Shown piece by piece: positions 7,521 to 13,106 of a stretch of 14,005 bases of DNA. The DNA comes from a virus: the UHGV virus genome UHGV-1657810, one strand, 5' to 3'. The notes under the pieces were generated by a model that had not been told where the DNA came from, searched no databases, and saw nothing but the letters and a program-made list of their open reading frames with translations. Numbering within the stretch: the first letter of the stretch is position 1; each line of letters opens with the position of its first letter. Both the position numbers and the translations under genes were made by a program.

Positions 7521-7817
7521 TCACTCCTGTTCACTGGCCTCTTTGGCCATCTTCAAATACTGTTCAGGGCAATGCGCCATAACGCGCTGAAACAGTTCCA
7601 GCGCCAGATTGCGTTGCCCCTCATTAAATGCCATTGCCATAGCGTCCATCGGTGAGATAGCGGAAAACACACGGCCTTTCTCCAGCACCGACCAGACAAC
7701 GCGACGTCCCTGTTCACTGCTCATGACAAAGCGAATGTCATCAATTTCACGCTGCGCCATGTCACGTTGCTTACGGGCGTTTTCTTCTTTCAGTTGATCG
7801 TCTTCGTAATCTGTCAT
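7521..7817 (-). CDS. Hypothetical protein, 98 aa, between portal and scaffold
   Basis: ATG at 7817 overlaps the portal stop (ATGA). Charged helical protein; no motif recognised. Confidence 0.5.
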   Translation of the reverse strand: MTDYEDDQLKEENARKQRDMAQREIDDIRFVMSSEQGRRVVWSVLEKGRVFSAISPMDAMAMAFNEGQRNLALELFQRVMAHCPEQYLKMAKEASEQE

Positions 7818-9493
7818 TGTGATTGCCCACCCTGACCACTAACTGCATTCGCCATAGCTGACAACACACTCGGATCCGAAGTTTTAGCTTCGCTTAGCGT
7901 CTTGGCCCCCTGTGCCGCCGCCATCCCCATCGCCATCATTTGTTGCTGCTGTTGTTGCTGTGCCCGTTGCTGGCGAGCCTGCTCAACCTGTTCCTGCGGA
8001 ACAATGACGGTTGGAGACACTCCGGACATATCAGCGAATGCATCGATCGCCTGATCAACGTTGAGTTTGTCGAGAGCTTCTGGTTTCGCTTGCGCAAGTT
8101 GACCAATGAAGTTGACCGTAGACGCCAGACTGGACAGGCCGATAGACTTCTGCGCCTGAGCCATGACGGAAATGTATTCGACCTTCAGGGGCATGCCTTC
8201 CATCGCGTCAGGCGGTGGCGGCAGCATGTTTTTACGCACCATCATCGAGAAAGAGCGGTCAATGAGAGGATTAAGACATTCGTCGTTCAGACGCTCCAGA
8301 ACCGGCCCCAACATCAGAAGTTTTTCTTCTTTCATTTCGATCACCGCTTCAACAGGCATCGAGCGGGTATTGATGTTCTGCAACATCATGAACAGATCGA
8401 CAAAGTAGGCGCTGTTAATGATTTGACGAGTGTCCTGAATGTCTGCCACCAAATCTGCTGTACTGGGGTTAACCAGATAAGCAGGCCTGAAGCCATCCTG
8501 ACCAGTAATCTGATCGATATACGTGATGTCGCCAGGAAGAAGGGAGGCGCGCTGATTCTTGAGGGAAGTCGGAGCAACCATCGGCGGATTGGTGGCTTTA
8601 TCAATCAACTGCGACTTGCGCTTCTGGAGAAGCTGCAATGCCTTAACAGGTCCAAGCGCCAGCATACCCGGGCATGATGATCCATAAACATCTTCGCCGT
8701 TAACTTCCCAGCGCGGAGCCATAATTGGAAACTCATCGAATCCGGACTCACGCAACAACTTGTCGTTATCGCCGCCAACCTCGTAATAAACCGATTTGAA
8801 TGGCTTGTTCTTGCTATCCAGCTTCGATGTATCGCGGTCAATGTTCGGGTAAACCGAATGCATCACTTCAATCCACTTCTCGTAGGTGCCGCTTTCCCAC
8901 ATGCTTTTTACGGATTCGCTGACGTTATTTAGCCCGAACTCCTGAACAAGCTGACGAACAGTCATAGAGAACTTGCGAAAACAGGTGTCCACACTGCCAC
9001 GAGGTGAGTTAGCCAAGTAGTAACTGCCTATCGGGAATGGCATTGTGCGAATGATGTCCTCATCATCCTCCAGTACCGCCATTGCGCCGGTGCTGTATGT
9101 GCCGAGGCTTCCGTATAACTGCGGCAGCGACTGATAGAGATTCGACTTATTGAACATATCGTTCATGCGGTTCTGCACGGCCTCAAGCCACAACTTAACA
9201 GGGCCATAATCCATCATTTCAGGATCTGGCGTAGCCAGGCGAAACCACGGACGCGCGGGGCTTGTGATGCCTGACATCATGCCGCTGGCGAGAGTGCGCG
9301 CCGCCATAGTCCCGGTCGAATCAATAATGCGTGTATTGCGTCGATCGTTACGGTTGACCTCAGAAGTCAGAAAGCGGGAACCACGCGGGTTGATGTAATC
9401 ACTCAACTCGCGCCAGTGCGGCTCGAACGACTGACGCTCGCTTTCAAGTTGTGCGAACTGTTTGTTCAATCGCTCTTTAGTTGTTTCCGCCAT
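7814..9493 (-). CDS. Portal protein (T7-type head-to-tail connector family), 559 aa
   Basis: 559-aa ORF immediately downstream of terL and its insert. The Gln/Ala/Met-rich C-terminal tail (QQRAQQQQQQQMMAMGMAAAQGA) is characteristic of T7 gp8-like connectors as I recall them. ATG at 9493 with GGAG SD. Confidence 0.85.
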   Translation of the reverse strand: MAETTKERLNKQFAQLESERQSFEPHWRELSDYINPRGSRFLTSEVNRNDRRNTRIIDSTGTMAARTLASGMMSGITSPARPWFRLATPDPEMMDYGPVKLWLEAVQNRMNDMFNKSNLYQSLPQLYGSLGTYSTGAMAVLEDDEDIIRTMPFPIGSYYLANSPRGSVDTCFRKFSMTVRQLVQEFGLNNVSESVKSMWESGTYEKWIEVMHSVYPNIDRDTSKLDSKNKPFKSVYYEVGGDNDKLLRESGFDEFPIMAPRWEVNGEDVYGSSCPGMLALGPVKALQLLQKRKSQLIDKATNPPMVAPTSLKNQRASLLPGDITYIDQITGQDGFRPAYLVNPSTADLVADIQDTRQIINSAYFVDLFMMLQNINTRSMPVEAVIEMKEEKLLMLGPVLERLNDECLNPLIDRSFSMMVRKNMLPPPPDAMEGMPLKVEYISVMAQAQKSIGLSSLASTVNFIGQLAQAKPEALDKLNVDQAIDAFADMSGVSPTVIVPQEQVEQARQQRAQQQQQQQMMAMGMAAAQGAKTLSEAKTSDPSVLSAMANAVSGQGGQSQ

Positions 9494-9507
9494 TTCAATG
9501 ACTCCGG

Positions 9508-9714
9508 TTACTGACCAAGCAGCGTTTTACCGCTGGTATTAGCGGTTGATGTGTCGCCCTGAGAACCGGTAAGCAGCGTAGAACTACGACCAGCAGCAGC
9601 GCGACGGCGACGTGTTTCTTCGTCGCGGGCATCAACAACGGCGGCATCCTGCTCCTGTGGTGCTGCCTGAACTTCTGGTGTTGCAGGCACTGATGGTGAG
9701 CTGCCCATGCACAT
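9508..9714 (-). CDS. Hypothetical small protein, 68 aa, low complexity (uncertain)
   Basis: ORF with ATG at 9714 preceded by GGAG. Its stop at 9508 sits on the portal RBS, suggesting translational coupling. Composition is Ala/Arg/Thr-rich, so it could be a spurious ORF. Confidence 0.3.
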   Translation of the reverse strand: MCMGSSPSVPATPEVQAAPQEQDAAVVDARDEETRRRRAAAGRSSTLLTGSQGDTSTANTSGKTLLGQ

Positions 9715-9865
9715 ATCAATGACTCCGTACGCAATTAAATTATTACCAATTTAACCACATATGATTTATTTATCGTAGATAGTTGACATTTAACGCACAA
9801 ATTATTACCTTCAAGGTAAGTAAAGGGTTCATTCCGGTTATTAACCTGACTGGCTTGTCGTTAAA

Positions 9866-9893
9866 TTGAACAGGTGGAGTGAGCTTTTATTTT
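9866..9893 (+). promoter_or_regulatory. Candidate sigma70 promoter for the plus-strand tRNA/moron transcript (weak)
   Basis: TTGAAC (9866-9871), 16-bp spacer, TATTTT (9888-9893), inside an AT-rich segment. An alternative perfect -35 TTGACA at 9783-9788 has only a weak -10. Not verified. Confidence 0.2.
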
Positions 9894-10141
9894 GAGCAGT
9901 ACGGCGTATGGCACATGCGCCGATAGCGGTCTGGATACGTTTAAGGGGCACCCTCCCTTGCTCGGGCAAACGAACCAGGTAGCCGGAATGTGCAAGTCGA
10001 GCGGTTTTATTCCGCGCACGGGGATTCACCATCCCGGAGATTCGGTGTGACACCTCGGAAGAGACGAGGGTACAACGATGAGAGCATTTATGGAGCCGCG
10101 ACAAAGTGTGGCGCCTTAACAGGCTAAGTGCTCTCAGCGTT

Positions 10142-10218
10142 GTGGCATTAGCTCAGTTGGACAGAGCAACCGCCTTCTAAGCGGTTGGTCGCAGGTTCGA
10201 ATCCTGCATGCCACGCCA
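10142..10218 (+). tRNA. tRNA-Arg, anticodon UCU (reads AGA/AGG)
   Basis: 77-nt perfect cloverleaf read by hand: acceptor GTGGCAT/ATGCCAC (7 bp), D stem GCTC/GAGC, anticodon stem ACCGC/GCGGT with loop CTTCTAA (anticodon TCT), T stem GCAGG/CCTGC with T-loop TTCGAAT, discriminator G and encoded CCA. The body resembles enterobacterial argU as I recall it. Confidence 0.93.
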
Positions 10219-10261
10219 GAATCACGCCTAAGGACCGTGATGCCAGAAGTTCCAGGGGCTT

Positions 10262-10303
10262 GGCGGTGATGGTTTCCCTTGAAGGACTATCACCGCCCTT
10301 TTT
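10262..10303 (+). terminator. Rho-independent terminator downstream of the tRNA
   Basis: GGCGGTGAT (10262-10270) pairs with ATCACCGCC (10289-10297), a 9-bp stem with a structured loop, followed by CTTTTT (10298-10303). Confidence 0.65.
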
Positions 10304-10381
10304 ACAGCAGGACGCCATTGCGATGACTTCATGCTGTAAACCAGTACAGCCACGGAAGGCATAACTCATTGCTTCCAGTTC

Positions 10382-10405
10382 GCCCGGTTCGCCGGGCATT
10401 TTTTT
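10382..10405 (+). promoter_or_regulatory. Hairpin plus T-tract immediately upstream of the moron ORF RBS (terminator or attenuator-like)
   Basis: GCCCGG-TTCG-CCGGGC (6-bp GC stem, TTCG loop) followed by ATTTTTTT, then the SD AAGGTGAG and ATG at 10422. Confidence 0.4.
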
Positions 10406-10421
10406 AAGGTGAGATTAGACT

Positions 10422-10793
10422 ATGAGTGACAAAGACATTGAATCTGAAATTCAGGCTAAAGGTTTAGCCGCGCCGCGCGTTACGCCAGACAATATCGAGA
10501 GCATTATTGCTCAGGAGTCATATTTCACAGCAGAAGATGGTGCCTTTGGCGTAGCCATAAAAGCGAAACATACTGGCGGAGAGGTAAACTACCAGCCGCA
10601 CGAATCACTTTCTCTGCTGACGTTCTGCGTCCTGGTGCTGCGCAACGGCTTCACCGTCACCGGAGAGAGCGCCTGTGCAAGCCCGGAAAACTTTGATGCA
10701 GAAATTGGTCGGAAGATTGCCCGACAGAATGCTGTAAACAAAATCTGGATGCTTGAAGGTTACTTGCTGAAGCAGAAGTTAAGCGAGCAATAA
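10422..10793 (+). CDS. Hypothetical moron protein, 123 aa, cytoplasmic, unknown function
   Basis: Only convincing plus-strand ORF in the window. ATG at 10422 with AGGTGA SD, TAA at 10791, own terminator downstream. No signal peptide or TM segment; acidic N-terminus, C-terminal amphipathic helix (AEIGRKIARQNAVNKIWMLEGYLLKQ). Possibly related to the small phage accessory family typified by N4 gp49 / Sf6 gp66, but that is an unverified recollection. Confidence 0.6.
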   Translation: MSDKDIESEIQAKGLAAPRVTPDNIESIIAQESYFTAEDGAFGVAIKAKHTGGEVNYQPHESLSLLTFCVLVLRNGFTVTGESACASPENFDAEIGRKIARQNAVNKIWMLEGYLLKQKLSEQ

Positions 10794-10813
10794 CACCGTG
10801 ACATATCACAAAC

Positions 10814-10842
10814 AGCCAGCCTATGAGCTGGCTTTGTTTTAT
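10814..10842 (+). terminator. Rho-independent terminator after the moron ORF (possibly bidirectional)
   Basis: AGCCAGC-CTATGA-GCTGGCT (7-bp stem) followed by TTGTTTTAT on the plus strand. On the minus strand the hairpin is followed by GUUUGUGAU, so it may also act weakly after terL. Confidence 0.55.
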
Positions 10843-10883
10843 CCTCATCAGAGGATATCAACAACATTATCCCCTCAAGCGGA

Positions 10884-12359
10884 TTAAGCATAGGGATCGT
10901 AATCTGTGATGGCCTTGCCTTGCTGGTTCTGCTGCCCGGGAATTCGCAGACGCTTAGACACAGGGAACGCAAACGTCAGCAGTAGCGCATCGCCTTTACC
11001 CGGTGAACGCCCAAGCCGCTCCTTGATATCTTCCTTCGGTTCGATAACGATTTTACCGTCCACTCGAACTTTGTACTCTGCCGCCGACAGGTCGTCTGCT
11101 GTTTCCTGGTCATCCAGCATGCCGCCAAGCCTCAGCCATGTCTTGCATGAATTGAACATCTCCCCACGCTTGTTGAGCATCTGCGGGTCAGTAGACGCGC
11201 CACCGAACGGAACAAGTTGCCATGTACGACCCCAGCCATCACCGATTGACTTCAGACCGGTTCCGTAACCGAAGTCGATGAACACCGCGTCAGCCTGGTA
11301 CTGGTCTTCAAAGTCGGCGATACGCTTCGCCATAATCAGATCGTCAGTGGTCTTGTTGCCGGTCCACAGCACCTTACTGTGCAGCCCCTGCCGCAGGTAT
11401 ATCACAGCGTCATCAACGCCGGAGTATGCCGGGTCAACACCGATTATCACCGGAGCATGTGCCACCTGCGCAGCGGTTACCACCCGTTTCATTGCCTCAT
11501 CAGTAAGACCGGTAGGGATAAACTGCAATTCAGATGCATCAGGGAATATGCCACGCACACGGATTTTAACGAAGTCGCTGTCTTCCCCGTAGTCATCAAC
11601 CCATTTCTGCAACTGCTGTTTGTTGGTACCTTCCACCGTACGACTGTCAATCTGCGCAGTTTTCCAGCGGTGTTTATACTTGCGGAAACATTCACGGAAA
11701 CGTCCGGTATTACGCGTCGGGTTCCCGAACGCCACCCAGATGATTTCGGTGTCTTCGTCCGTCAGCGCACCCTCTGCTACCTCCCACACCAGATCGGCAA
11801 TGTTCGACGCTTCATCGAATACCACGATGATGCGTTTGCGCTCGTTGTGTAGTCCGGCGAATGCCTCAGTGTTGTGCTCAGACCAGGGGATTGCGTCAGC
11901 TCGCCACCGCTTGTCGTGCCCAGGGTCATTGCTGTACATCGCGGTAGCGGTACAGGTAAACCAGTCTTTCGTGATAGCAAGGTTTGACCACTTGATAATT
12001 TCCGGCCAGGTCTTCGTTCGTAGCTGGTTGTCGGTGTTGGCGGTCACCACGACCTTACAATCCTCGCAAGTGGACATGCCCCAGTTGATCAGCATTGAGA
12101 TGAATGCGGATTTACCAATACCGTGACCAGAAGCGCGTGCCAGCATAAGCGGCTGATAGCGCGTCTCTGGATTCTGCAGGTGATCGCGTATCTCTCGGAA
12201 CGCATCAGCCTGCCACTGACGTGGGCCGGTAGCATGTGCCAGTTCAGTCCCCTCTTCCCCCCAAGGGAACGCATAGAGGGCATAGCCAAGCGGATCGTGA
12301 GTGAACCCTGCAATATCCTCGATCAACTGCTCTTCAGGAGATAACGCTGTATCTGTCAC
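10884..12359 (-). CDS. Terminase large subunit, 491 aa
   Basis: Walker A P-loop ARASGHGIGKSA, Walker B IIVVFDEAS, and a C-terminal nuclease-like region (IIGVDPAYSG...D...). Directly downstream of terS with a GTGA start/stop overlap; start is GTG at 12359. Confidence 0.92.
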   Translation of the reverse strand: MTDTALSPEEQLIEDIAGFTHDPLGYALYAFPWGEEGTELAHATGPRQWQADAFREIRDHLQNPETRYQPLMLARASGHGIGKSAFISMLINWGMSTCEDCKVVVTANTDNQLRTKTWPEIIKWSNLAITKDWFTCTATAMYSNDPGHDKRWRADAIPWSEHNTEAFAGLHNERKRIIVVFDEASNIADLVWEVAEGALTDEDTEIIWVAFGNPTRNTGRFRECFRKYKHRWKTAQIDSRTVEGTNKQQLQKWVDDYGEDSDFVKIRVRGIFPDASELQFIPTGLTDEAMKRVVTAAQVAHAPVIIGVDPAYSGVDDAVIYLRQGLHSKVLWTGNKTTDDLIMAKRIADFEDQYQADAVFIDFGYGTGLKSIGDGWGRTWQLVPFGGASTDPQMLNKRGEMFNSCKTWLRLGGMLDDQETADDLSAAEYKVRVDGKIVIEPKEDIKERLGRSPGKGDALLLTFAFPVSKRLRIPGQQNQQGKAITDYDPYA

Positions 12360-12988
12360 TGATTACCATCCTGACGTTCTTTGAGTCGCTTCCTGGCTGC
12401 TGCTATGCGATCAGCAATTGTCACATTCACATTAACATCCAGGCGCTCTTTGAACGCGTTAACGTCGACGTGTTTACCGATGAGCTCGAGGTTTTTCACC
12501 TTGTCGGGCCATTTCACCTTCTTCAGGATATGCTCGACATCCTCAACAGAGAGATCCGCCTCGCCATTCTCTTTTTGCAGAGAAGCCTGGGTCGTCTTGA
12601 TGGTAGCGATATCCATAGCACTGAGAGAGGTACGCCAGACCTTCGGCCATTCAGCGATCGGCTTCATCCCGCCGTCATCGTTCAGGATATCCAGCACGTC
12701 CATCTGGTCGATTTCCACCAGGCGCAGCAGGACATAATCAGCACTGACGCGCAGGCGCTTGTTGCGCTCTTCCATCAGCTCGGCAATCCGTTTTTGAATG
12801 CGTTCATCGCGCATCATGACACTGGCTTTAACTGCCGCTGTATTTGGAGAGAATCCTGCGTTAATCGCTGCCTGAGTCTGGTTTTCAGGCGTTTTGATGT
12901 ATGACTGGCAATAAGCCTCCTGCATTGCTGTTAGTGGCTTAAATTGCGTTGATTTGCGTTTATAGGTTTTAGGTTCAGCAGGCATCAT
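12356..12988 (-). CDS. Terminase small subunit (P27-type), 210 aa
   Basis: Contains QAAINAGFSPNTAAVKASVMMRDERIQKRI, the helix-turn-helix-like signature I associate with P27-family small terminases. Stop overlaps the terL start. I place the start at ATG 12988 (MMPAEP...) rather than the track's 13066, because the 26-codon N-terminal extension would run through a terminator hairpin and the dyad repeats. Confidence 0.85.
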   Translation of the reverse strand: MMPAEPKTYKRKSTQFKPLTAMQEAYCQSYIKTPENQTQAAINAGFSPNTAAVKASVMMRDERIQKRIAELMEERNKRLRVSADYVLLRLVEIDQMDVLDILNDDGGMKPIAEWPKVWRTSLSAMDIATIKTTQASLQKENGEADLSVEDVEHILKKVKWPDKVKNLELIGKHVDVNAFKERLDVNVNVTIADRIAAARKRLKERQDGNQ

Positions 12989-12994
12989 AACCAC

Positions 12995-13027
12995 CGTGGT
13001 AATAGTTACCGTTGTGGTAATAGTACC
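12995..13027. repeat. Tandem dyad-symmetric repeats immediately upstream of the terS start
   Basis: GTGGTAATAGTTACC (12996-13010) and GTGGTAATAGTACC (13014-13027). Each contains the inverted repeat GGTAA-N3-TTACC (the second imperfect). They lie between the terminator hairpin and the terS start codon. Confidence 0.5.
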
Positions 13028-13030
13028 ATG

Positions 13031-13057
13031 CAGAATAAAGCCGCCATAGTTGGCGGC
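13031..13057 (-). terminator. Intrinsic terminator-like hairpin between the 112-aa gene and terS (minus-strand sense)
   Basis: On the minus strand: GCCGCCA-ACUA-UGGCGGC (7-bp stem) followed by UUUAUUCUG. Confidence 0.5.
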
Positions 13058-13106
13058 AGTATTCAAAACCCATCAAATTCATCATGCATAATCTACTCGT
13101 GACATG

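What the first reader, a model, noticed from the sequence alone, without database searches (positions are those of the whole stretch)
10422..10793. 123-aa cytoplasmic protein of unknown function as candidate single-gene defence, anti-defence or exclusion factor
The protein has no signal peptide or transmembrane segment and no catalytic motif I can recognise. It has an acidic N-terminus and a basic amphipathic C-terminal helix. It has an independent RBS and a strong terminator, and the opposite orientation to the virion genes argues against a structural role. Small moron proteins at packaging-module junctions are a recurring source of newly described phage-host interaction factors.
Basis: inference. 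Interest (0 to 1): 0.6.

Follow-up and report, generated by a model that had tools for sequence, protein, structure and literature searches.

The report
Known phage anti-CBASS sponge gene (Acb4)
The 123-aa protein is real, but it is not an unknown: it belongs to the published Acb4 family of phage "sponge" proteins, which soak up the cyclic-nucleotide alarm signals of bacterial CBASS immunity, and a 97%-identical protein from phage phiV10 is already in the published family list.

Summary

The most likely mechanism is a homotetrameric sponge for cyclic dinucleotides, that is anti-defence. Ligand specificity is unresolved: only 3 of 10 SPO1 contact residues are identical, and a hypervariable 25-aa insert replaces the loop that carries a base-contacting lysine.

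Side observations:
- The gene sits in a cargo slot bounded by two conserved terminators. Relatives carry a Tad2-like sponge or unknown genes there.
- It has no room for its own promoter.
- It probably depends on an operator-overlapped promoter upstream of a tRNA-Arg.

Verdict: already known, low interest.

The parts
10422..10793 (+). acb4 homologue (PF13876, 'Gp49 family protein'), 123 aa: predicted cyclic-dinucleotide sponge
10533..10610 (+). Codons 38-63: hypervariable insert between strands beta1 and beta2. It replaces the short SPO1 loop that carries the guanine-contacting K36.
   Evidence: mean column entropy 2.71 bits, against 0.36 for residues 64-123. (the insert is absent from SPO1, Stenotrophomonas and Paracoccus homologues). 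(role of K36 in SPO1 Acb4).
10406..10413 (+). Ribosome-binding site AAGGTGAG, 8 nt before the ATG
   Evidence: It is conserved as AAGGTGA in front of most cargo genes in relatives.
10382..10405 (+). Intrinsic-terminator-like hairpin GCCCGG-TTCG-CCGGGC plus a T7 run, directly abutting the RBS. It is the left boundary of the swappable cargo cassette.
   Evidence: scan. (invariant in 12 phages; the Salmonella clade has GCCCAC/GTGGGC, two compensatory pairs). (homology to TL-2011b and EC.W1-9 stops at 10405). (the epsilon15 record annotates the equivalent stem-loop as a rho-independent terminator).
10219..10381 (+). Conserved structured leader between the tRNA and the terminator: a 14-bp hairpin at 10262-10297 followed by CTTTTT, and a 45-nt block at 10298-10342 that is almost invariant across the aligned relatives and contains TTTACAGCA-N22-TGCTGTAAA
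   Evidence: hairpin. (MFE -71.5 kcal/mol, z -2.96). (conservation). (no Rfam family).
10142..10218 (+). tRNA-Arg (anticodon UCU), on the same strand upstream of acb4
   Evidence: ARAGORN. (Rfam tRNA, 73 bits). (PGAP annotation in a 98.5%-identical prophage).
9783..9819 (+). Predicted promoter TTGACA (9783-9788), 17-nt spacer, TACCTT (9806-9811), overlapped by the palindrome TTACCTTCAAGGTAA (9805-9819). This is the putative repressor-controlled start of the tRNA-acb4 transcript.
   Evidence: sequence. (TTGAC, ATTACCTT and GGTAA are invariant in 6 phages). (the palindrome occurs 14 times in phiV10 against 0.73 expected, clustered around the repressor gene). (the epsilon15 record labels the equivalent site 'repressor; lysogeny'). 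The promoter is inferred; the consensus scan did not call it.
10814..10843 (.). Bidirectional terminator shared by acb4 (+) and TerL (-). It is the right boundary of the cargo cassette.
   Evidence: called on both strands. (annotated in phiV10). (homology to TL-2011b resumes at 10814).

Best explanation
The gene encodes an Acb4-family anti-defence protein. By analogy with SPO1 Acb4 and N4 gp49, the 13.5-kDa protein would assemble into a homotetramer. Its inter-subunit pockets would bind cyclic dinucleotides made by the host's CBASS cyclases: 3'3'-cGAMP and, as in other Gram-negative-phage homologues, probably 3'3'-c-di-AMP. Sequestering these signals would stop them from activating the CBASS effector, so the phage can replicate.

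Shown here: family membership, fold, and the phage and anti-defence context.

Inferred: tetramer formation, ligand binding and ligand identity. Also inferred is expression from an operator-overlapped promoter upstream of the tRNA-Arg, by read-through or antitermination of two leader terminators. That would make the gene silent in the lysogen and active early after infection or induction.

A predicted side effect is that the protein could trigger guard systems (Panoptes, PanDA) that sense sponge activity.
For: - Pfam PF13876: E 4.8e-35, 120 bits against a cut-off of 27, full profile coverage. SPO1 Acb4, N4 gp49 and Sf6 gp66 hit the same model.
- Chang et al. equate PF13876 with the Acb4 family. 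All eight purified homologues bound 3'3'-cGAMP, and those from Gram-negative phages also bound 3'3'-cAA.
- Their Table S3 lists phiV10 Q287B5, which is 119/123 identical to the window protein.
- Direct phmmer hit to PDB 9e4w. hhalign of the window-clade profile against SPO1 Acb4 gives 95.3% probability.
- The window protein is 44% identical to N4 gp49. N4 gp49 binds c-di-AMP with Kd 111 nM and activates PanDA and Panoptes.
- In the relative ST512-KPC3phi13.3 the same genomic slot holds a Tad2-like sponge (PF11195, E 4e-26), which marks the slot as an anti-defence site.
- The stacking and hydrophobic pocket residues F48, F62 and I66 of SPO1 are conserved as F77, F91 and I95.
Against: - No experiment on this protein or its close orthologues was found, and the eight homologues tested by Chang et al. 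are not named in the held text.
- Only 3 of the 10 SPO1 ligand-contact residues are identical. The base-specific K36 and E49 and the phosphate contacts Y57, T70 and K81 are replaced by L65, T78, A86, I99 and M110.
- A 25-aa hypervariable insert and a conserved 19-aa N-terminal extension have no counterpart in the solved structure.
- The tetramer could not be modelled with the tools available.
- A terminator directly in front of the RBS sits uneasily with the high expression a stoichiometric sponge needs.
Confidence: 0.85

Rival explanations
1. The protein is a true dsRNA-binding protein, a dsRBD that still has its basic 'KR' motif. It would act on RNA, for example by masking dsRNA or antisense duplexes or by interfering with RNase III, rather than on cyclic nucleotides.
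Confidence: 0.05
2. It is a lysogen-expressed factor that benefits the host, for example superinfection exclusion or defence, through titration of a signalling nucleotide or another target.
For: It sits in a prophage found at 80% or more window coverage in 497 of 5426 complete E. coli genomes. It is next to a tRNA gene, a class of gene often expressed from prophages. It is on the strand opposite to the late genes.
Against: There was no match to PADLOC defence models. The family is experimentally an anti-defence family. The predicted promoter is overlapped by the phage's operator palindrome, and two terminators precede the gene, which argues for silence in the lysogen. Strictly lytic phages (N4, SPO1) carry homologues.
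Confidence: 0.06
3. It is a virion or DNA-packaging accessory protein, because it lies between the terminase and portal genes.
For: Position only.
Against: The orientation is opposite to the virion genes. Homology is to a sponge family, not to structural proteins. The gene is replaced by unrelated cargo in otherwise near-identical phages (TL-2011b, EC.W1-9), so it is dispensable for assembly.
Confidence: 0.02

Closest known systems
Escherichia phage phiV10 PhiV10p03 (UniProt Q287B5) and Salmonella phage epsilon15 ABK13674 (A0AR14)
   Same: These are orthologues at the same genomic position in Uetakevirus genomes. The phiV10 protein is 97% identical. Both are listed as Acb4 homologues in Chang et al. 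Table S3. They share the leader, terminator and RBS arrangement.
   Different: Four substitutions relative to phiV10: H24N, A33S, V41A and A105V. The epsilon15 protein has a different sequence in the hypervariable insert. I found no individual biochemical test of either protein.
Bacillus phage SPO1 Acb4 (PDB 9E4W), founding member of the family
   Different: About 27% identity over the core. This protein lacks the guanine-reading K36 and E49 and the phosphate contacts Y57, T70 and K81. It has a 25-aa insert in the beta1-beta2 loop and a conserved N-terminal extension (EIQAKGLxAPRVTP). It keeps a basic RK..R motif that SPO1 has lost. SPO1 Acb4 does not bind 3'3'-cAA, whereas Gram-negative homologues do.
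Escherichia phage N4 gp49 (Acb4 of N4)
   Same: 44% identity over 108 residues, the same family and an E. coli host. T78 and C85 occupy the same pocket positions as in N4. N4 gp49 is the best experimentally tested proxy: it binds c-di-AMP with Kd 111 nM and triggers PanDA and Panoptes.
   Different: N4 is a lytic phage. Its protein has a C-terminal Cys-rich tail and a shorter insert, and it lacks the N-terminal extension.
Shigella phage Sf6 gene 66 protein (Q716B1)
   Same: The C-terminal 58 residues (66-123) are identical apart from R74K. It also sits next to the packaging genes of a temperate podophage.
   Different: The sequence of the hypervariable insert is completely different, and the N-terminal third is diverged.
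Other phage nucleotide sponges (Acb2, Tad1, Tad2, Sequestin)
   Same: All are small homo-oligomeric proteins that sequester immune signalling nucleotides. A Tad2-like gene occupies the same slot in a related Klebsiella phage, and Acb4 is often fused to Tad2 or Sequestin.
   Different: Their folds and families are unrelated.

Membership tests
Acb4 / Pfam PF13876 (Phage_gp49_66) | Sequence match to the family model above the curated threshold | tested here: met
   E 4.8e-35, 120.3 bits against a cut-off of 27. Residues 20-120 cover profile positions 1-82 of 82. SPO1 Acb4 itself scores 35.5 bits on the same model.
Acb4 / Pfam PF13876 (Phage_gp49_66) | Acb4 protomer fold: a three-stranded antiparallel sheet flanked by N-terminal helices and a long C-terminal helix (dsRBD-like) | tested here: met
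Acb4 / Pfam PF13876 (Phage_gp49_66) | Homotetrameric pinwheel assembly with four inter-protomer pockets | not testable with these tools
   Only monomer prediction is available. Chang et al. report confident AF3 tetramers for all eight homologues they modelled.
Acb4 / Pfam PF13876 (Phage_gp49_66) | Conservation of the SPO1 ligand-contact residues (K36, F48, E49, V56, Y57, F62, N63, I66, T70, K81) | tested here: inconclusive
   F48, F62 and I66 are identical (F77, F91, I95). N63 becomes D92, a backbone contact. K36, E49, V56, Y57, T70 and K81 become L65, T78, C85, A86, I99 and M110. The proven sponge N4 gp49 is equally divergent at these positions, so this does not exclude binding, but it leaves specificity open.
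Acb4 / Pfam PF13876 (Phage_gp49_66) | High-affinity binding of CBASS cyclic dinucleotides and rescue of phage from CBASS | not testable with these tools
   This needs EMSA or ITC and plaque assays. It is known for SPO1, for eight unnamed homologues and for N4.
Acb4 / Pfam PF13876 (Phage_gp49_66) | Encoded by phages or prophages as a small stand-alone accessory gene | tested here: met
   The window is 98% identical to Uetakevirus phiV10 and to E. coli prophages. The gene is replaced by other cargo in close relatives.
Canonical dsRNA-binding domain (dsRBD) | Alpha-beta-beta-beta-alpha fold with a [KR]-x(1-3)-[KR] motif at the N-terminus of helix 2, and dsRNA binding | tested here: inconclusive
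Classical phage 'moron' (own promoter + gene + terminator) | An autonomous promoter immediately upstream of the gene | tested here: not met
   Only 16 nt, holding the RBS, lie between the T-run of the upstream terminator (ending at 10405) and the ATG. No sigma-70-like site was found in 9400-11000. A downstream terminator is present.
Anti-phage defence systems (PADLOC models) | Match to a known defence protein model | tested here: not met
   No PADLOC family at E up to 1.

The most novel reading that the evidence does not exclude
The protein itself is known. The most novel reading concerns its setting. Uetakeviruses would carry a dedicated 'anti-defence expression dock' made of three parts: a repressor-controlled promoter, a conserved structured leader of about 200 nt (with or without a tRNA-Arg) that ends in an invariant terminator abutting an RBS, and an interchangeable cargo gene (Acb4, Tad2-like or several unknowns). 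The leader would act as a regulated attenuator or antitermination element that times sponge expression. The unknown cargos would be new anti-defence proteins. Within Acb4, the hypervariable beta1-beta2 insert, at the position of SPO1's base-reading loop, would retune which immune signal is captured.
Probability: 0.25. Interest if true: 0.55.

Novelty: already known. Interest (0 to 1): 0.2.

Why it matters
For annotation, 'hypothetical protein' or 'Gp49 family protein' in this very common E. coli prophage can be read as an Acb4-type anti-CBASS sponge. The prophage is present at 80% or more window coverage in 497 of 5426 complete genomes.

Biologically, it implies that these temperate phages can disarm CBASS, and possibly other cyclic-dinucleotide pathways, on infection or induction. 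They should also be sensitive to guard systems such as Panoptes and PanDA.

The finding adds no new kind of system. The only leads beyond the literature are the cargo-swap slot with uncharacterised alternatives, the terminator-gated leader and the hypervariable insert.

Tried and rejected
- NCBIfam and PADLOC scans of the protein gave nothing. PHROGs gave only 'unknown function' families.
- Rfam at E up to 1 over 9400-11000 found only the tRNA, so the leader is not a known riboswitch or sRNA.
- The consensus promoter scan found no sigma-70 site. The promoter I propose narrowly fails that scan's rule and rests on conservation instead.
- I considered the minus-strand ORF 10148-10399 (annotated as PhiV10p04) as a real divergent gene and rejected it. 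It overlaps the tRNA antisense, PGAP omits it and it has no Pfam hit. Differences between clades in its only conserved stretch are all non-synonymous while 15-20 nt runs are invariant. The compensatory hairpin changes also alter two of its codons.
- I considered the inverted repeat TTTACAGCA/TGCTGTAAA as an RNA stem. The Salmonella clade breaks pairs 7-9 without compensation, so only 6 bp are supported.
- I looked for the names of the eight homologues tested by Chang et al. in the methods and in Table S3 and did not find them.
- A literature search for Acb4 together with Sf6 found nothing relevant.
- One preprint (10.64898/2026.08.10.743927) could not be opened.

Full report
**Observation**

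The window has an ATG-initiated ORF at 10422-10793 on the plus strand that encodes 123 aa.
- AAGGTGAG lies 8 nt upstream of the ATG.
- A hairpin at 10814-10833 with a T-rich tail follows the stop codon. It is scored as a terminator on both strands, and the phiV10 record annotates it as one.
- The flanking genes are all on the minus strand: small terminase (12356-13066, PF03592), large terminase (10884-12359) and portal (7814-9493, PF12236).
- The N-terminal third is acidic (pI 4.2) and the last 31 residues are basic (pI 9.8).
- No 19-residue window reaches transmembrane hydrophobicity.
- The C-terminal helix is only moderately amphipathic.

**Source of the window**

The region 9500-11500 is 97.9% identical to Escherichia phage phiV10, a Uetakevirus related to epsilon15. 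The whole window matches prophages in E. coli chromosomes, with 80% or more coverage in 497 of 5426 complete genomes. In RefSeq the gene is annotated 'Gp49 family protein', with a tRNA-Arg upstream on the same strand.

**Identity of the protein**

- Pfam places residues 20-120 on the whole of PF13876 (Phage_gp49_66) with E 4.8e-35 and 120 bits, against a cut-off of 27.
- A phmmer search of PDB sequences finds one entry, 9e4w, 'anti-CBASS 4 (Acb4)' of Bacillus phage SPO1.
- Chang et al. (bioRxiv 10.1101/2024.12.30.630793) showed that SPO1 Acb4 is a homotetrameric sponge. It binds 3'3'-cGAMP (Kd about 157 nM) and other CBASS dinucleotides, and it blocks CBASS in vitro and in vivo.
- They found that it belongs to PF13876, with 1,331 homologues.
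- All eight purified homologues bound 3'3'-cGAMP and none bound c-di-GMP. Those from Gram-negative phages also bound 3'3'-c-di-AMP.
- Their Table S3 lists the phiV10, epsilon15, Sf6 and N4 proteins.
- The phiV10 entry is 119/123 identical to the window protein.
- I confirmed that SPO1 Acb4, N4 gp49 and Sf6 gp66 all hit PF13876.

**Independent checks of membership**

- A profile of 63 close homologues aligns to SPO1 Acb4 with 95.3% hhalign probability.
- An AlphaFold2 model (mean pLDDT 81.5) has three strands (29-36, 67-73, 78-82) and a long C-terminal helix (93-122).
- Foldseek against the PDB returns 9e4w chains as the top 13 hits.
- N4 gp49 is 44% identical. It binds c-di-AMP with Kd 111 nM and is sufficient to trigger the PanDA and Panoptes guard systems.

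**What remains open**

Mapping the ten SPO1 ligand contacts onto this protein gives:
- three identities: F48/F77, F62/F91 and I66/I95;
- one conservative change: N63/D92;
- six replacements: K36/L65, E49/T78, V56/C85, Y57/A86, T70/I99 and K81/M110.

N4 gp49 diverges in the same way, so binding is not excluded. Ligand preference cannot be read from the sequence.

The short SPO1 beta1-beta2 loop that carries K36 is replaced here by an insert of about 25 residues. This insert is by far the most variable part of the clade, with mean column entropy 2.71 bits for residues 38-63 against 0.36 for residues 64-123. The last 58 residues are nearly identical to those of Sf6 gp66. A conserved N-terminal extension (EIQAKGLxAPRVTP) also has no counterpart in the solved structure. 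Tetramer formation could not be tested.

The protein retains a basic R97-K98..R101 motif at the start of the long helix. A 2026 preprint ties this motif to dsRNA binding in viral dsRBDs and notes that SPO1 Acb4 has lost it. I keep dsRNA binding as a low-probability rival, because N4 gp49 has a comparable basic pair and is a proven sponge.

**Genomic setting (beyond the finding)**

- A tRNA-Arg(UCU) lies at 10142-10218 on the plus strand.
- Between it and the gene is a structured leader (MFE z -2.96). It has a 14-bp hairpin followed by CTTTTT at 10262-10305, and a block at 10298-10342 that is almost invariant across the aligned relatives.
- The leader ends with the hairpin GCCCGG-TTCG-CCGGGC and a T7 run ending at 10405, one base before the RBS.
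- Across 12 Uetakeviruses of E. coli, Salmonella, Klebsiella and Enterobacter, this last hairpin and T-run are invariant. The one exception is two compensatory pairs in the Salmonella clade. The epsilon15 record annotates it as a rho-independent terminator.
- Homology to TL-2011b and EC.W1-9 stops exactly at 10405, and for TL-2011b it resumes at 10814, the downstream terminator. The RBS plus gene is therefore a cassette bounded by two terminators.

In relatives the slot holds:
- Acb4: phiV10, epsilon15, VB_ST_E15, Kp4865-1 and BUCT554;
- a Tad2-like protein (PF11195, E 4e-26): ST512-KPC3phi13.3;
- proteins of unknown function: TL-2011b 115 aa, EC.W1-9 201 aa, PAT1 143 aa, SPN1S 64 aa, Tyrion 123 aa, and a further 61-aa ORF ahead of the Acb4 gene in BUCT554.

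This context supports an anti-defence role. It also shows that the gene is dispensable for virion assembly.

**Expression (inferred)**

There is no room for a promoter between the terminator and the RBS. The nearest candidate is TTGACA (9783-9788), a 17-nt spacer, then TACCTT (9806-9811). Its -10 element lies inside the palindrome TTACCTTCAAGGTAA (9805-9819). These elements are invariant in six diverged phages.

The palindrome TTACC-N5-GGTAA occurs 14 times in phiV10 against 0.73 expected. It lies mostly between genes and clusters around the repressor gene. The epsilon15 record labels the equivalent site 'repressor; lysogeny'.

I therefore infer a repressor-controlled transcript that runs from the promoter through the tRNA-Arg and the leader into acb4. 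It would need read-through or antitermination at two terminators. That would keep the sponge off in lysogens and turn it on after infection or induction. None of this has been tested.

**Verdict**

However, the gene is an already catalogued member of a characterised family (Acb4). Novelty: already known. Interest: low, 0.2. The residual leads are the hypervariable insert, the terminator-gated leader and the unknown alternative cargos of the same slot.

Noticed in passing
window 10142-10218 (+) and 10148-10399 (-): A tRNA-Arg(UCU) lies upstream of acb4 on the same strand. The 83-aa minus-strand ORF, which the phiV10, TL-2011b and EC.W1-9 records annotate as a hypothetical protein (PhiV10p04), overlaps the tRNA antisense. 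PGAP does not call it, it has no Pfam hit and it shows no coding-type substitution pattern. It is probably a spurious CDS.
   Followed up: yes
window 10219-10405 (+): A conserved structured leader ends in an invariant terminator hairpin plus T7 run that directly abuts the RBS of whatever cargo follows, in 12 phages. The Salmonella clade has two compensatory base pairs in this hairpin. A 45-nt block at 10298-10342, almost invariant across the aligned relatives, contains TTTACAGCA-N22-TGCTGTAAA. There is no Rfam match. Its function (attenuator, processing site, antitermination element or protein-binding site) is unknown.
   Followed up: partly
window 10406-10813; L005:1316-1663, L006:1277-1882, L008:907-1338, L009:1129-1323, L010:908-1429, L011:846-1217, L012:837-1022, L013:872-1512: The slot between the two terminators is a cargo-swap site. 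Relatives carry Acb4, a Tad2-like sponge (Klebsiella phage ST512-KPC3phi13.3) or unrelated proteins of unknown function, which fall in PHROGs 3163, 4780, 18493, 4846 and 11227. These unknowns are candidate anti-defence or defence genes.
   Followed up: partly
window 9783-9819; L014 (phiV10) 14 sites: The palindrome TTACC-N5-GGTAA overlaps a conserved TTGACA-N17-TACCTT promoter-like site upstream of the tRNA. It recurs 14 times in phiV10 (0.73 expected), mostly in intergenic regions and around the repressor gene. It is probably the phage operator.
   Followed up: partly
window 10533-10610 (codons 38-63 of acb4): There is a hypervariable insert between beta1 and beta2 (entropy 2.71 against 0.36 bits), while the C-terminal 60 residues are almost invariant across Sf6-, epsilon15- and phiV10-type alleles. 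Only 143 of about 500 E. coli genomes that carry the tRNA-leader module have this allele at 80% or more coverage.
   Followed up: partly
L004:1237-1710 and database proteins P0001, P0002, P0005-P0008 (157 aa): Some gene calls extend the Acb4 ORF 34 codons upstream, through the terminator hairpin, the T-run and the RBS (…GHFFKVNV-MSDKD…). These 157-aa forms are probably start-site artefacts.
   Followed up: partly
L010:908-1129 (residues 1-74 of the ST512-KPC3phi13.3 protein) and PHROG 9467: An unassigned N-terminal domain of about 70 aa is fused to Tad2 in this Klebsiella phage. It matches the N-terminal part of PHROG 9467, whose C-terminal part matches Acb4. The domain is therefore fused to two different sponges and could be another sponge module.
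   Followed up: no
window 10730-10738 (+): A third exact copy of TGCTGTAAA, the right arm of the leader inverted repeat, lies inside the conserved part of acb4 (codons N-A-V-N). This may be chance.
   Followed up: no
window 10884-12359 (-): The 491-aa protein annotated in relatives as terminase large subunit gave no Pfam hit at E up to 0.01, and one PGAP record calls it hypothetical.
   Followed up: no
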